Shown piece after piece: positions 31,189 through 36,564 of a DNA stretch of 46,763 bases (positions are counted from its first letter, which is position 1; every line of letters begins with the position of its first letter). A program made the translations under genes and the position numbers. The notes below the pieces were generated by a model. The model did not search any database, had not been told where the DNA came from, and worked only from the letters and a program-made list of their open reading frames with translations. Origin of the DNA: a virus (Duplodnaviria; Heunggongvirae; Uroviricota; Caudoviricetes); the IMG/VR virus record IMGVR_UViG_2511231131_000008; one strand, given 5' to 3'.

Positions 31189-31502
31189 CGAATTTCTCCC
31201 GTGTACAGGAACAGAGTTAAAAAGCCGGAACCGGAATCAAATCACAGGATGACCATCTGCCAGTGGCTGGTCGTAAAAAAAAGGCCGCGCCATGCGCAGC
31301 CGGAAATAAAGGGATAACGATGATAGTTTGAGAAAAACAGAAATAACACTTTTGTGGCAAAGCATGGTGCCGGGTGCCTCCCGGTGAATTCAGTACCAGC
31401 ACCTGAATCCGCGATTATCCCATATACCTGGTTGCTGATTGCCCCACCGCACAGGGGGATTCACCATGCAGTAGTATTTTTAATAAACAGTAAACAAAAA
31501 AA

Positions 31503-34519: not shown

Positions 34520-34798
34520 TTACCTCCAGATCCGTTGCTGGAATGTGCGGGACGGACGCGGTGGGCGTTCGGAGTAAGGAAGCCTGACGGAGATTATCCA
34601 GTGACGGTAGTCGAGGCTGAGGGCTTTCTTAATCTCGTATCCGCGCCTGCGGTAACACTGAATCAGCCATTCAGCCTGTTCTTCGGTGCAGGGGTCGTGC
34701 TGATACCAGTCAGATTTGAATGCATGAGAACGCCGCCCGTGCCTGCTGGCAGGGGCGGCAGAGTTATCCGAATTGTAAAATTTGGTATCGTGCGCCAT
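34520..34798 (-). CDS. Hypothetical protein at the position of rem in the Qin prophage
   Basis: 92 aa from ATG 34798 (MAHDTKFYNSDNSAAPASRHG...); lies between the DUF968 gene and hok. Confidence 0.45.
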   Translation of the reverse strand: MAHDTKFYNSDNSAAPASRHGRRSHAFKSDWYQHDPCTEEQAEWLIQCYRRRGYEIKKALSLDYRHWIISVRLPYSERPPRPSRTFQQRIWR

Positions 34799-34869: not shown

Positions 34870-34897
34870 GAAAAAACAAAACCCGCCGAAGCGGGTT
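34870..34897 (-). terminator. Rho-independent terminator at the 3' end of the hok transcript
   Basis: Minus strand AACCCGCTTCGGCGGGTTTTGTTTTTT about 70 nt downstream of the hok stop. Confidence 0.65.
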
Positions 34898-34965
34898 AAG
34901 TGCGGGTGCGTTGAGGATGCCTGACACATCAGCGGTGGCGAGGGATTTCTCCCCCGCCTGGTCTC

Positions 34966-35121
34966 TTACTCCTCAGGTTCGTAAGCTGTGAAGACAGCGA
35001 CCTCCGTCTGGCCGGTTCGGATTCGTACCTCGCAGAGGTCTTTCCTCGTTACCAGTGCCGTCACTATGACGGTTAAACAGATGACGATCAGGGCGATTAA
35101 CATCGCCTTTTGCTGCTTCAT
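34966..35121 (-). CDS. hokD: Hok/Gef-family type I toxin (HokD/RelF-like)
   Basis: 51 aa MKQQKAMLIALIVICLTVIVTALVTRKDLCEVRIRTGQTEVAVFTAYEPEE matches HokD/RelF as recalled; AGGAG Shine-Dalgarno 9 nt upstream; in-frame upstream ATG at 35178 gives a 70-aa extension. Confidence 0.85.
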   Translation of the reverse strand: MKQQKAMLIALIVICLTVIVTALVTRKDLCEVRIRTGQTEVAVFTAYEPEE

Positions 35122-35364
35122 AGCCTGCTTCTCCTTGCCTTTCGGCACGTAAGAGGCTAACCTACATTTGTGAGACATAGATTGGGCCTCAGATTAATGT
35201 TAAGCGTCTTGCAGGACGCGTAATGTTAACTGGGGCTTTTCTCTATCTGCCTTTTGGTGTTCATGCCTGAGGCAGATAGCCTCAAGCACCCGCAGCAATT
35301 CTACTTAACTCTCGCTTTACCGCAAACCGTTTTTACCCGATATGGGAATTCCCATATCGTAATG

Positions 35365-35578
35365 AATTCAGTTCCCTAGTCGATCCATCAAAAACACAAC
35401 CAGGCAGTAAACGCCCACAACAGCAACAACAGCCAGCGCACCTTCCATTGCCAGTGATATATCATCCGACAAATTCAGTTCCCTAGTCGATCCATCAAAA
35501 ACACAACCAGGCAGTAAACGCCCACAACAGCAACAACAGCCAGCGCACCTTCCATTGCCAGTGATATATCATCCGACA
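35365..35578. repeat. Perfect tandem duplication, 2 x 107 bp
   Basis: Unit aattcagttccctagtcgatccatcaaaaacacaaccaggcag...gtgatatatcatccgaca occurs twice back to back; each unit carries one 34-codon ORF on the minus strand. Confidence 0.85.
35368..35472 (-). CDS. Hypothetical 34-aa membrane peptide, downstream tandem copy (TTG start)
   Basis: Same coding sequence as 35475-35579; the duplication junction replaces ATG with TTG; weak AGGGA Shine-Dalgarno. Confidence 0.3.
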   Translation of the reverse strand: MSDDISLAMEGALAVVAVVGVYCLVVFLMDRLGN

Positions 35579-35614: not shown

Positions 35615-35698
35615 TTACCCCCACCGACAAATAACATATACTAAAAAAGCGATAGCCATAGCAACGCCTGTAATTGCAAATGCTTCAGGCCAGTTCAT
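35615..35698 (-). CDS. Hypothetical 27-aa membrane peptide, translationally coupled to the DUF551 gene
   Basis: MNWPEAFAITGVAMAIAFLVYVICRWG; its ATG overlaps the upstream stop (ATGA). Confidence 0.4.
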   Translation of the reverse strand: MNWPEAFAITGVAMAIAFLVYVICRWG

Positions 35699-36564
35699 TG
35701 GCGCACCTCCTGCGGCGGTTCTGGTAGAGGCATCCAGTGTGATGGTATCCACGACGCACCAGGTATTATCCACCCATCATTAGCGTCAGGATGCCCCGGG
35801 ATGTAAGTCGCCCATTTCATTCGCCAGTCACCTTTCCTGCCAAAATCCCTGGCAACAAGAACGGCTGTTTTGGTATCCGGCATTCGCTCACTACAGCTTA
35901 TCCAACTATCCGGAGTTACCGGATAGTTGCCCGATAGTGCATTCTGCTCCAGTGATGCTTTTACAAACCACGCTGCCTGAACTATAACGCCATGAATCCA
36001 GCGCAAATCAGCATCGCGATCTTTCTTTTTCATCTTTTCGCCACTTAAGGCCTTGCTTATGTGGCTGCGTACCAGGTCTTCATGTAATTCCTTCGCCTCC
36101 TCAATGGTGAAACCACCAGGCAGAAGAGCCGGAGTTACCGGAGAGCTGGTTGACGCTTCCGGGATTTTCCGAAAATTATTGGTTGACGAATCTTTATTTT
36201 CCCGAAAGTTTCCGGACTGAAGCATGGCTTCGCGGCAATCGTTCCAGCCTGTAGCGTATGCAGTCGCTTTGCTGCTGCCTTCAACTGGCGCATCCTGCCA
36301 ATACATTTCTTCCGGCACTATCGGCGCTGGAGGGGCGGCAAATAGATATCCGCCAAAGTCAGGAAGCTCTCTAATGGCCTGTACGAATTTTTGTTTGCCT
36401 ACGTCAACCCCTAATGGGTAATGAGCTATAATCTTTGCCACCGGCTCTGCTTCCAGCGATGCCAGCGCAATCCGTGCCAGTTCCATTTGTTCACCACGGG
36501 TAAGCCCGTTTTCAAGCGGATTTTTAATGAACAATTCAATACGTTCTTTGGTAATAGTGGTCAT
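35695..36564 (-). CDS. DUF551-domain phage protein
   Basis: 289 aa; C-terminal ...WISCSERMPD...GWIIPGASWIPSHWMPLPEPP resembles the DUF551 signature as recalled. Confidence 0.6.
   Translation of the reverse strand: MTTITKERIELFIKNPLENGLTRGEQMELARIALASLEAEPVAKIIAHYPLGVDVGKQKFVQAIRELPDFGGYLFAAPPAPIVPEEMYWQDAPVEGSSKATAYATGWNDCREAMLQSGNFRENKDSSTNNFRKIPEASTSSPVTPALLPGGFTIEEAKELHEDLVRSHISKALSGEKMKKKDRDADLRWIHGVIVQAAWFVKASLEQNALSGNYPVTPDSWISCSERMPDTKTAVLVARDFGRKGDWRMKWATYIPGHPDANDGWIIPGASWIPSHWMPLPEPPQEVRQ

What the first reader, a model, noticed from the sequence alone, without database searches (positions are those of the whole stretch)
34870..35365. hok toxin gene in the nin region, apparently without relBE
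An intact 51-aa Hok peptide with a good Shine-Dalgarno and a downstream terminator sits where Qin carries relB-relE-hokD, but the upstream neighbours here are tiny membrane-peptide ORFs, not relBE. An in-frame upstream ATG (35178) gives a 70-aa extension, which is not typical of mok. A sok-type antisense RNA would be expected on the plus strand of the leader (about 35145-35290; a possible TTGCCT-17-TAACCT promoter and a 9-bp stem at 35249-35285 are present), but I could not define it confidently.
Basis: partly seen in the sequence, partly recalled or inferred. Interest (0 to 1): 0.5.

Follow-up and report, generated by a model that had tools for sequence, protein, structure and literature searches.

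The report
Intact prophage hok/mok/sok toxin-antitoxin locus
This is an ordinary, complete copy of the well-known hok/sok toxin–antisense-RNA module carried by a lambda-like prophage of E. coli, the intact form of the gene that E. coli K-12 keeps only as the truncated hokD next to relBE.

Summary
On the minus strand, 35121..34966 encodes a 51-aa Hok peptide identical to K-12 HokD (Pfam HOK_GEF, E = 3e-23). The locus is a complete hok/mok/sok type I toxin-antitoxin module, not an orphan toxin.

- **Leader:** Rfam's sok/hok-leader model matches 35291..35116 at 121.7 bits (gathering score 59).
- **hok mRNA:** it has its own promoter. Its 5' tac element pairs with a 3' fbi element in the predicted fold (z = -7), and an intrinsic terminator follows.
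- **mok:** the in-frame ATG at 35178 has its own Shine-Dalgarno sequence and is the mok start. In-frame mok is the norm in the hokC/hokD/hokW group, although R1 mok and K-12 mokB are out of frame.
- **Sok:** it is predicted on the plus strand at about 35170..35246. Its TTGCCT-17-TAACCT promoter is identical in sequence to the sokW promoter of Sakai prophage 5, where mutating the -10 region abolished antitoxin activity.

The 551-bp stretch is 100% identical in E. coli O55:H7 genomes, where the gene is annotated hokD. It is 93-94% identical to the characterised hokW-sokW locus.

K-12 Qin shares homology only from the hok Shine-Dalgarno sequence onward, because relBE replaced the leader there. 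That point is already published.

Verdict: already known, low interest. One side observation is worth keeping: the 5' tail of Sok is a sharp variability hot spot among otherwise near-identical copies.

The parts
35298..35326 (-). Predicted hok promoter: -35 TTTGCG (35326-35321), 17-nt spacer, -10 TAGAAT (35303-35298), with +1 six bases further at 35291
   Evidence: Read from the sequence. The -10 has the same spacing to +1 as TATGAT in the R1-type locus. The consensus scanner did not flag it, which fits the known weak hok promoter. Inferred, not mapped.
34871..35291 (-). Full-length hok mRNA, about 421 nt
   Evidence: The 5' end is set by position 1 of the Rfam model, which equals R1 hok +1 (GGCGCUUGAGG). 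The 3' end is set by the intrinsic terminator. MFE -169.9 kcal/mol, z = -7.06, 0 of 100 shuffles fold as well.
35280..35291 (-). tac element (GGGUGCUUGAGG) at the mRNA 5' end
   Evidence: It pairs with fbi in the MFE of the full-length mRNA. The duplex is -21.5 kcal/mol; 6 of 500 shuffled 3' UTRs do as well. It is invariant in 67 related loci (entropy 0.02-0.05 bits).
35232..35240 (-). ucb / anti-SD box (AAAAGCCCC). It pairs with the mok SD in the closed form and with tac in the open form.
   Evidence: GCCCCAG pairs with CUGAGGC in the MFE. The tac/ucb stem is the first helix of the Rfam consensus and appears as inverted repeat I1. Forcing tac/ucb costs +10.5 kcal/mol in the full-length mRNA but only +3.0 after removing the 3' end.
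35187..35190 (-). mok Shine-Dalgarno sequence (GAGG), 8 nt upstream of the mok ATG
   Evidence: Read from the sequence. It occupies the position homologous to the R1 mok SD and is sequestered in the full-length fold.
34966..35178 (-). mok ORF: 70 codons, in frame with hok, sharing its stop codon
   Evidence: The layout matches K-12 mokC/hokC and Sp5 orf74. It is conserved in 59 of 70 distinct related sequences; a further 8 sequences (11 loci) have a 19-codon out-of-frame version.
35131..35136 (-). hok Shine-Dalgarno sequence (AAGGAG)
   Evidence: Read from the sequence. It is invariant in related loci. Homology with K-12 Qin hokD ends at window 35135, at this element.
34966..35121 (-). hok CDS: 51 aa plus stop, identical to K-12 HokD
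34980..34983 (-). TACG motif at the Tyr47 codon (target A at 34982), a possible TadA A-to-I editing site giving Tyr to Cys
   Evidence: Read from the sequence. The identical K-12 hokD mRNA is reported to be edited at this Tyr (PMC5630033). Not tested here.
34937..34958 (-). GC-rich stem-loop just after the stop codon, the probable protective 3' hairpin of the processed (truncated) hok mRNA
   Evidence: A 9-bp hairpin in both folds. Its role is inferred from the R1 model (PMC9841398).
34904..34916 (-). fbi element (CCUCAACGCACCC), complementary to tac
   Evidence: The same pairing is found in Sp5 (0 of 500 shuffles do as well). R1 has compensating sequences: GGCGCUU pairs with AAGCGCC.
34871..34897 (-). 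Intrinsic terminator of hok mRNA
   Evidence: AACCCGC-TTCG-GCGGGTT followed by TTGTTTTTT.
35135..35163 (+). sok promoter: -35 TTGCCT (35135-35140), 17-nt spacer, -10 TAACCT (35158-35163)
   Evidence: Sequence identical to the Sp5 sokW promoter region. The primers for the Sp5 'pro-less' construct change the -10 there, and that construct lost antitoxin activity (PMC8621323). It is homologous to R1 TTGCGC-17-TATCCT. It falls below the generic scanner threshold.
35170..35246 (+). Predicted Sok antisense RNA, about 77 nt: a 14-nt single-stranded 5' tail, a long hairpin at 35184-35238, and a U-rich tail
   Evidence: Both ends are set by homology to the annotated K-12 sokC. The start coincides with the end of the Sp5 sokW northern probe YO-592. 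Fold: -32.9 kcal/mol, z = -4.25. No transcript data exist for this locus.

Best explanation
The locus is a complete hok/mok/sok type I toxin-antitoxin module of the hokD/hokW type. It sits between the replication/nin genes and the DUF968-RusA-Q module of a lambdoid prophage of the E. coli O55:H7/O157:H7 kind.

Proposed mechanism (steps 1-3 are supported by sequence, homology and folding; steps 4-6 are inferred from R1 and Sp5):
1. A weak promoter (-10 at 35303-35298) makes a stable hok mRNA of about 420 nt (35291..34871).
2. The 5' tac element pairs with the 3' fbi element. In that closed form the ucb box sequesters the mok Shine-Dalgarno sequence, so the full-length mRNA is neither translated nor bound by Sok.
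3. Slow 3' trimming removes fbi. tac can then pair with ucb, which frees the mok start region.
4. Ribosomes starting at mok (35178) read through the structured hok start and allow production of the Hok peptide. Here they also make an N-terminally extended Hok, because mok is in frame.
5. While the prophage is present and transcribed normally, the short-lived Sok RNA (about 35170-35246, plus strand) pairs with the mok start region. This blocks translation and triggers RNase III cleavage.
6. When Sok synthesis stops, for example on prophage induction, Hok inserts into the inner membrane and depolarises the cell. In Sp5 this speeds lysis and doubles phage release.

K-12 Qin hokD is the derived state, in which relBE replaced everything upstream of the hok Shine-Dalgarno sequence.
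For: - **Family matches:** Rfam RF01794 at 121.7 bits over the whole leader. The same model hits Sp5 hokW, K-12 hokC, K-12 hokB and an R1-type plasmid locus on the hok-sense strand, and does not hit Qin hokD. Pfam HOK_GEF and PHROG 251 also match. The Hok protein is identical to K-12 HokD.
- **Known relatives:** 93-94% DNA identity to Sp5 hokW-sokW, with an identical sok promoter. That locus has been shown to be a toxin plus RNA antitoxin (PMC8621323).
- **mRNA folding:** the full-length MFE contains the tac-fbi pairing and the ucb-mok SD pairing, z = -7.06. The open tac/ucb form is penalised by 10.5 kcal/mol in the full-length mRNA and by only 3.0 after 3' truncation.
- **mok:** its layout equals mokC/hokC.
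- **Sok:** the predicted RNA folds as a tail plus terminator hairpin and aligns end to end with the annotated sokC.
- **Occurrence:** the sequence is 100% identical in O55:H7 genomes, and 3263 of 5426 complete E. coli genomes hold at least 80% of it.
- **Qin comparison:** homology with Qin stops at 35135. The truncation of hokD by relBE integration is already published (PMC6379469).
Against: - There are no transcript, processing or toxicity data for this particular copy.
- Neither promoter reaches the generic sigma-70 scanner threshold.
- The unconstrained MFE of the truncated mRNA keeps the mok SD paired; the open form is 3 kcal/mol above it.
- Chromosomal hok loci of K-12 were reported to be inactive in post-segregational killing assays (cited in the bioRxiv survey). 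An intact sequence therefore does not prove activity.
- The role in prophage biology is extrapolated from one study of a locus that is about 93-94% identical.
Confidence: 0.93

Rival explanations
1. The locus is a decayed, non-functional hok remnant, like K-12 hokA, hokC, hokD and hokE. The toxin ORF survives but regulation or expression is broken.
For: Chromosomal K-12 hok loci were reported to be inactive (cited; PMC5630033). In CB9615 the same prophage has a frameshifted gpJ and other pseudogenes, so it may be defective. The sok -10 TAACCT matches the consensus at only 3 of 6 positions.
Against: Every regulatory element is intact and in register: the hok promoter, tac, ucb, mok SD and ATG, the sok promoter, the Sok terminator, fbi and the hok terminator. 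No insertion sequence or rearrangement interrupts the locus. The same TAACCT promoter is functional in Sp5. The elements are nearly invariant across 67 related distinct sequences.
Confidence: 0.05
2. This is an orphan hok toxin without its own antitoxin. It would be expressed only by read-through from the prophage early-right operon and act as a lysis accessory gene.
For: hok has the same orientation as the early-right genes (DUF551, DUF968, RusA, Q). Only weak terminator-like sites lie upstream. In Qin, hokD is indeed co-transcribed with the upstream relBE.
Against: A full Sok gene with promoter and terminator is present and is homologous to sokC and sokW. The leader scores 121.7 bits against the family model. 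A dedicated hok promoter sits at the position seen in the R1-type locus.
Confidence: 0.02

Closest known systems
hokW-sokW of Sakai prophage 5 / phage VT2-Sakai (Stx2 phage of E. coli O157:H7)
   Same: - 93-94% DNA identity over the whole locus.
- Identical sok promoter, tac, fbi, ucb, mok SD and hok SD.
- mok is 70 codons and in frame.
- Same setting in a lambdoid prophage, with a homologue of the 27-aa ORF and a DUF551 gene upstream.
   Different: - The Hok C-terminus differs: FTAYEPEE here, FVDYESEK in HokW.
- The first 17 nt of Sok differ at 6 positions; in total 7 of about 77 Sok nucleotides differ.
- The sequence downstream of fbi differs: the terminator here is like that of Qin hokD.
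- The downstream neighbours differ.
hokD (relF) of cryptic prophage Qin, E. coli K-12
   Same: - Identical 51-aa protein.
- 98.5% identity from the hok SD through the 3' UTR, including fbi and the terminator.
- Same downstream DUF968 (ydfU) and Q context.
   Different: - Qin lacks everything upstream of 35135: the mok start, the Sok coding region, the sok -10, ucb, tac and the hok promoter. relB-relE sits there instead, and the Rfam model finds nothing.
- Qin also has rem inserted downstream.
hokC/mokC/sokC (gef) of E. coli K-12
   Same: - 75% DNA identity, and the Rfam model hits at 118 bits.
- mokC is in frame and starts 57 nt upstream of hokC.
- sokC aligns end to end with the predicted Sok.
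   Different: - The Sok hairpin here is 16 nt longer.
- The K-12 hokC 3' region is interrupted by IS186, so its fbi is missing.
hok/mok/sok (parB) of plasmid R1
   Same: Same architecture and element order: the -10 of the hok promoter, tac, ucb, mok SD, the sok promoter at the hok SD, and fbi.
   Different: - The proteins are distantly related. The paper gives 44% identity between HokW and R1 Hok.
- R1 mok starts 58 nt upstream and is out of frame, ending 4 nt before the hok stop.
- R1 is plasmid-borne and acts in post-segregational killing.
- No obvious intrinsic terminator follows fbi in R1.

Membership tests
[quoted passage not shown] | A Hok/Gef-type small membrane toxin of about 50 aa | tested here: met
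   Pfam PF01848 at E = 3e-23, 81.6 bits against a cutoff of 22. PHROG 251 at E = 7.7e-33. Identical to K-12 HokD.
[quoted passage not shown] | A conserved, structured hok mRNA leader that matches the family covariance model | tested here: met
   RF01794 at 121.7 bits against a gathering score of 59, covering model positions 1-157 of 157. Positive controls (Sp5 hokW, hokC, hokB, R1-type) are hit on the same strand, and the negative control (Qin hokD) is not.
[quoted passage not shown] | A mok reading frame with its own SD, starting about 57-58 nt upstream of hok and running through the hok start | tested here: met
   GAGG, 8 nt, then ATG at 35178. The ORF is open for 70 codons. The position matches mokC (57 nt), mokB and R1 mok (58 nt). 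It is conserved in 67 of 70 distinct related sequences.
[quoted passage not shown] | An antisense Sok gene on the opposite strand, overlapping the mok start, with a promoter at the hok SD and a terminator hairpin | tested here: met
   Met at the sequence level. The promoter is identical in sequence to that of Sp5 sokW, which was tested by mutation. The fold is a tail plus hairpin plus U-rich tail, and the RNA aligns with the annotated sokC. The transcript itself has not been observed.
[quoted passage not shown] | Long-range tac-fbi pairing between the 5' and 3' ends that closes the full-length mRNA | tested here: met
   Present in the MFE, 12 bp with one bulge, overall z = -7.06. The duplex is -21.5 kcal/mol. 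R1 shows compensating sequences.
[quoted passage not shown] | A switch to the open tac/ucb form after 3' processing, which frees the mok SD | tested here: inconclusive
   The tac/ucb helix fits the Rfam consensus. Its energy penalty falls from 10.5 to 3.0 kcal/mol on truncation, but the unconstrained MFE of the truncated RNA stays closed.
[quoted passage not shown] | Hok is toxic, and Sok RNA neutralises it post-transcriptionally | not testable with these tools
   Shown only for the Sp5 locus, about 93-94% identical (PMC8621323), and for R1.
relBE-hokD (relBEF) operon of Qin | relB and relE lie immediately upstream and are co-transcribed with hokD | tested here: not met
   Homology with Qin ends at 35135. 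Upstream are the hok leader, small ORFs and a DUF551 gene. Only 2 of the 79 viral-contig loci analysed that encode identical HokD have relE upstream.

The most novel reading that the evidence does not exclude
The roughly 17-20 nt that encode the single-stranded 5' tail of Sok (also mok codons 2-5 and the 8 nt before the mok ATG, 35167-35186) may act as a fast-evolving specificity cassette.

- **Variability:** among 67 distinct prophage sequences that encode the same HokD, with otherwise almost invariant mRNA, this tract exists in at least 13 versions. They differ at a median of 7 of 17 positions.
- **Co-resident copies:** the three copies in each of two genomes all carry different versions.
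- **Implication:** if selection drives this, each lambdoid prophage would carry a private toxin/antisense pair that co-resident relatives cannot cross-neutralise. That would resemble incompatibility groups of antisense-controlled plasmids.
- **Prior work:** I found no description of this micro-diversity in the papers read here. Lack of cross-reaction between distant hok family members is old knowledge; that statement rests on my own recollection.
Probability: 0.4. Interest if true: 0.4.

Novelty: already known. Interest (0 to 1): 0.12.

Why it matters
It matters little as a discovery. The family, this subtype (hokD/hokW), its location in prophages and its relationship to the relBE-truncated K-12 gene are all in the literature and in databases.

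It is useful for annotation. RefSeq labels only the 51-aa hokD CDS here. The mok frame, the Sok RNA (about 35170-35246, plus strand) and the hok mRNA boundaries could be added.

This copy also shows cleanly that K-12 hokD is a derived, leaderless form. By analogy with Sp5, the module may tune lysis timing and phage yield on induction.

Tried and rejected
- **Promoter scan:** the generic promoter/terminator scan found the hok terminator but neither the hok nor the sok promoter, because both fall below its thresholds. I relied on homology to the R1 and Sp5 promoters instead.
- **Fold of the truncated mRNA:** the unconstrained fold did not adopt the open form. A constrained comparison showed only that the penalty drops from 10.5 to 3.0 kcal/mol.
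- **Rem comparison:** the 92-aa ORF downstream of hok gave no protein alignment with Qin Rem. Its DNA does align with unannotated Qin sequence between ydfU and rem.
- **tac/3' UTR duplex shuffles:** these were significant for the window (6 of 500) and Sp5 (0 of 500) but not for R1 (45 of 500). The K-12 hokC result is spurious because IS186 removed its 3' end. The hokB CDS was not picked up by my pattern.
- **First classification of viral loci:** the ungapped comparison mislabelled 44 loci as 'other' because of 1-2-nt indels. Re-analysis with MAFFT and motif anchoring fixed this.
- **Co-residence test:** only two genomes with three copies each were available. All six tails were distinct within their genome, but a rough estimate from the variant frequencies gives about a 60% chance of three distinct tails at random, so this is not evidence.
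- **Chance ORFs:** I considered and dismissed the overlapping ORFs at 35200-35298 (-), 34988-35152 (+) and 35254-35379 (+). There is no family match or other support for them.
- **Stray pattern hits:** some exact 21-nt matches in non-enteric MAGs are unrelated ORFs or likely contaminant contigs and were ignored.

Full report
**What is there**

The minus strand of 34871-35326 carries a compact, complete hok locus.
- The 51-codon ORF at 35121..34966 is preceded by AAGGAG.
- It matches Pfam HOK_GEF (E = 3e-23) and PHROG 251 'MokW-like host killing' (E = 7.7e-33).
- It translates to exactly the K-12 HokD protein.
- A covariance-model scan of the whole window gave one hit to Rfam RF01794 ('sok'): 121.7 bits against a gathering score of 59, E = 2.3e-27, at 35291..35116 on the minus strand.

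That Rfam model ends in the hok Shine-Dalgarno sequence and AUG. It also hits Sp5 hokW, K-12 hokC, K-12 hokB and an R1-type plasmid locus on the hok-sense strand, each time ending at the hok start. The annotated sokC and sokB lie on the opposite strand inside those hits. So the model describes the hok leader in sense orientation, and the real Sok is its partial reverse complement. Qin hokD gives no hit.

**Anatomy of the hok mRNA**

- **5' end and promoter.** Position 1 of the model (35291, GGGUGCUUGAGG) corresponds to +1 of R1 hok mRNA (GGCGCUUGAGG). A TAGAAT hexamer lies six bases upstream, at the same spacing as TATGAT in the R1-type locus. TTTGCG lies 17 nt further up.
- **3' end.** The mRNA would end at the intrinsic terminator at 34897-34871, giving about 421 nt.
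- **Closed form.** This RNA folds to -169.9 kcal/mol (z = -7.06; 0 of 100 shuffles as stable). In the MFE its first 12 nt (tac) pair with CCUCAACGCACCC at 34916-34904 (fbi), and the mok Shine-Dalgarno sequence (GAGG, 35190-35187) is paired with GCCCC of the ucb box.
- **Support for tac-fbi.** The duplex is -21.5 kcal/mol here and in Sp5. R1 has different but mutually complementary sequences.
- **Open form.** Forcing the alternative tac/ucb helix (the first helix of the Rfam consensus, and inverted repeat I1) costs 10.5 kcal/mol in the full-length RNA. It costs only 3.0 kcal/mol once the 3' 60 nt (fbi and the terminator) are removed. The mok SD then sits in a small hairpin with the region just downstream.

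This is what the published closed/open model of R1 hok mRNA expects (PMC9841398). The unconstrained MFE of the truncated RNA stays closed, so I count the switch as compatible rather than shown.

**mok**

The ATG at 35178 lies 8 nt after GAGG and opens a 70-codon frame that is in phase with hok. The comparison data are:

| Locus | mok start upstream of hok ATG | Frame relative to hok |
|---|---|---|
| Window | 57 nt | in frame, 70 codons |
| K-12 mokC/hokC | 57 nt | in frame, shared stop |
| Sp5 orf74 | 57 nt | in frame, 70 codons |
| R1-type mok | 58 nt | out of frame |
| K-12 mokB | 58 nt | out of frame |

- Several phage records call the same ORF 'MokW'.
- I analysed 79 IMG/VR loci encoding identical HokD, which collapse to 70 distinct sequences including the window and Sp5.
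  - 59 sequences have the 57-nt, in-frame, 70-codon mok.
  - 8 sequences (11 loci) have a 56-nt, out-of-frame mok of 19 codons, whose TGA overlaps the hok ATG.
  - 3 sequences have no leader.
- The start position is conserved while the frame is not. This argues that ribosome transit across the hok start matters, not the Mok peptide.

**Sok**

- **Promoter.** On the plus strand, TTGCCT (35135-35140), 17 nt, TAACCT (35158-35163) is identical to the Sp5 sequence. It is homologous to TTGCGC-17-TATCCT in the R1-type locus. In Sp5, the mutagenic primers replace exactly this -10, and the resulting 'pro-less' construct became toxic. Toxicity was partly rescued by sokW supplied in trans (PMC8621323).
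- **Ends.** By alignment with the annotated 59-nt sokC, Sok here would run from 35170 to 35246, 77 nt. The Sp5 sokW northern probe ends at the homologous base.
- **Fold.** The RNA has a 14-nt free 5' tail, a long hairpin (35184-35238) and GGGCUUUUCUCU (z = -4.25). The hairpin is 16 nt longer than the Rfam consensus, and Sp5 shares this insertion.
It is real (CTATCTGCC at 35243-35251 pairing with GGCAGATAG at 35271-35279), but it belongs to the hok mRNA 5' domain.

**Context and relatives**

- The window is a whole lambdoid prophage, running from integrase and excisionase to tail fibres and nleG effectors. It is collinear with E. coli O55:H7 CB9615.
- hok lies between a DUF551 gene with small ORFs and a 92-aa ORF, followed by DUF968, RusA and Q. 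It has the same orientation as the early-right genes.
- The 551-bp query is 100% identical in several O55:H7 genomes, where only 'hokD' is annotated. 3263 of 5426 complete E. coli genomes hold at least 80% of it, with a median of 2 and up to 10 matching places per genome.
- Seventy-nine phage records match it.
- Qin shares 98.5% identity from 34872 to 35135 only. Upstream of the hok SD, Qin has relE and relB.
- The literature already states that the ancestral hokD ORF had about 70 codons and was cut to 51 by integration of relBE (PMC6379469). [quoted passage not shown]

**Mechanism and confidence**

I therefore file the locus as a canonical hok/mok/sok module with confidence of about 0.93. What is shown here is sequence, homology and folding. 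Transcription, processing, toxicity and the role in induction are inferred from R1 and from Sp5, where mitomycin C depletes sokW, HokW appears in the inner membrane, and phage release halves without the locus.

**Side observation**

- Across 67 distinct related sequences, column entropy along the hok mRNA is about 0-0.3 bits. The exception is a peak of 0.64-0.83 bits at 35186-35167, which is the Sok 5' tail and mok codons 2-5.
- There are 13 distinct 17-nt tails with a median of 7 mismatches between them. Nucleotide diversity is 0.33 in the tail and 0.0075 in the hok CDS. The set was chosen for identical Hok protein, which lowers the CDS value.
- The three copies in E. coli ECMA0423 and the three in S. 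flexneri SFBU1023 all carry different tails. That is expected fairly often by chance.
- This may reflect selection for private Sok/hok specificities among co-resident prophages. It remains untested.

**Verdict**

The feature is already known, and interest is low.

Noticed in passing
window 35167-35186 (compared with L009-L088, L090-L110): The Sok 5' tail / mok codons 2-5 is a sharp variability hot spot (0.64-0.83 bits per column, against about 0-0.3 elsewhere in the hok mRNA). At least 13 variants exist among loci encoding identical HokD. Co-resident copies in two genomes all differ. This could be a specificity determinant.
   Followed up: partly
L010, L020, L029, L032, L046, L061, L065, L086 and identical loci (viral contigs): In one group of otherwise near-identical hokD loci, a 1-nt difference puts mok out of frame. 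It becomes a 19-codon ORF whose TGA stop overlaps the hok ATG (ATGA). This suggests classic termination-reinitiation coupling and that the Mok peptide sequence is dispensable.
   Followed up: partly
window 35365-35578: An exact 107-bp tandem duplication (two 100%-identical copies) duplicates a 34-aa hydrophobic small ORF (MSDDISLAMEGALAVVAVVGVYCLVVFLMDRLGN). The upstream copy has AGGAGG plus ATG. The downstream copy starts with TTG, 2 nt after the first copy's stop. CB9615 has a single copy; O55:H7 strains DEC5D and TB182A appear to have two. No Pfam or PHROG family matches.
   Followed up: partly
window 35615-35698 (-): A 27-aa hydrophobic ORF (MNWPEAFAITGVAMAIAFLVYVICRWG) overlaps the end of the DUF551 gene. 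Homologous DNA lies upstream of hokW in Sp5 (70% identity), where the cloning primer begins at its ATG. No family match, function unknown.
   Followed up: no
window 34980-34983 (-): The Tyr47 codon of hok lies in a TACG motif within UUACGAA, which resembles the tRNA-Arg anticodon loop. The identical K-12 hokD mRNA is reported to be A-to-I edited by TadA at this Tyr, giving Cys (PMC5630033).
   Followed up: partly
window 31329-31495 (-): Rfam STnc100 sRNA hit (99.6 bits against a gathering score of 47), downstream of the Q antiterminator gene and upstream of the SASA-family esterase gene. This is where a PR'-type leader RNA would lie in a lambdoid phage.
   Followed up: no
window 34523-34798 (-): A 92-aa ORF just downstream of hok matches PHROG 1212 (unknown function, E = 2e-36). 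Its DNA is 85% identical to an unannotated stretch between ydfU and rem in K-12 Qin. Relative to this window, Qin has rem inserted between that stretch and hokD.
   Followed up: partly
window 35698-36564 (-): The window reads as one intact 289-aa DUF551 ORF. RefSeq annotates the 100%-identical CB9615 sequence as a pseudogene fragment plus a 112-aa DUF551 protein. This looks like an annotation inconsistency.
   Followed up: no
L002 409-496 (+) (phage VT2-Sakai): Rfam sRNA-Xcc1 hit (60.6 bits against a gathering score of 53) in the Sp5 region upstream of hokW. It was seen only because the locus was scanned as a control.
   Followed up: no
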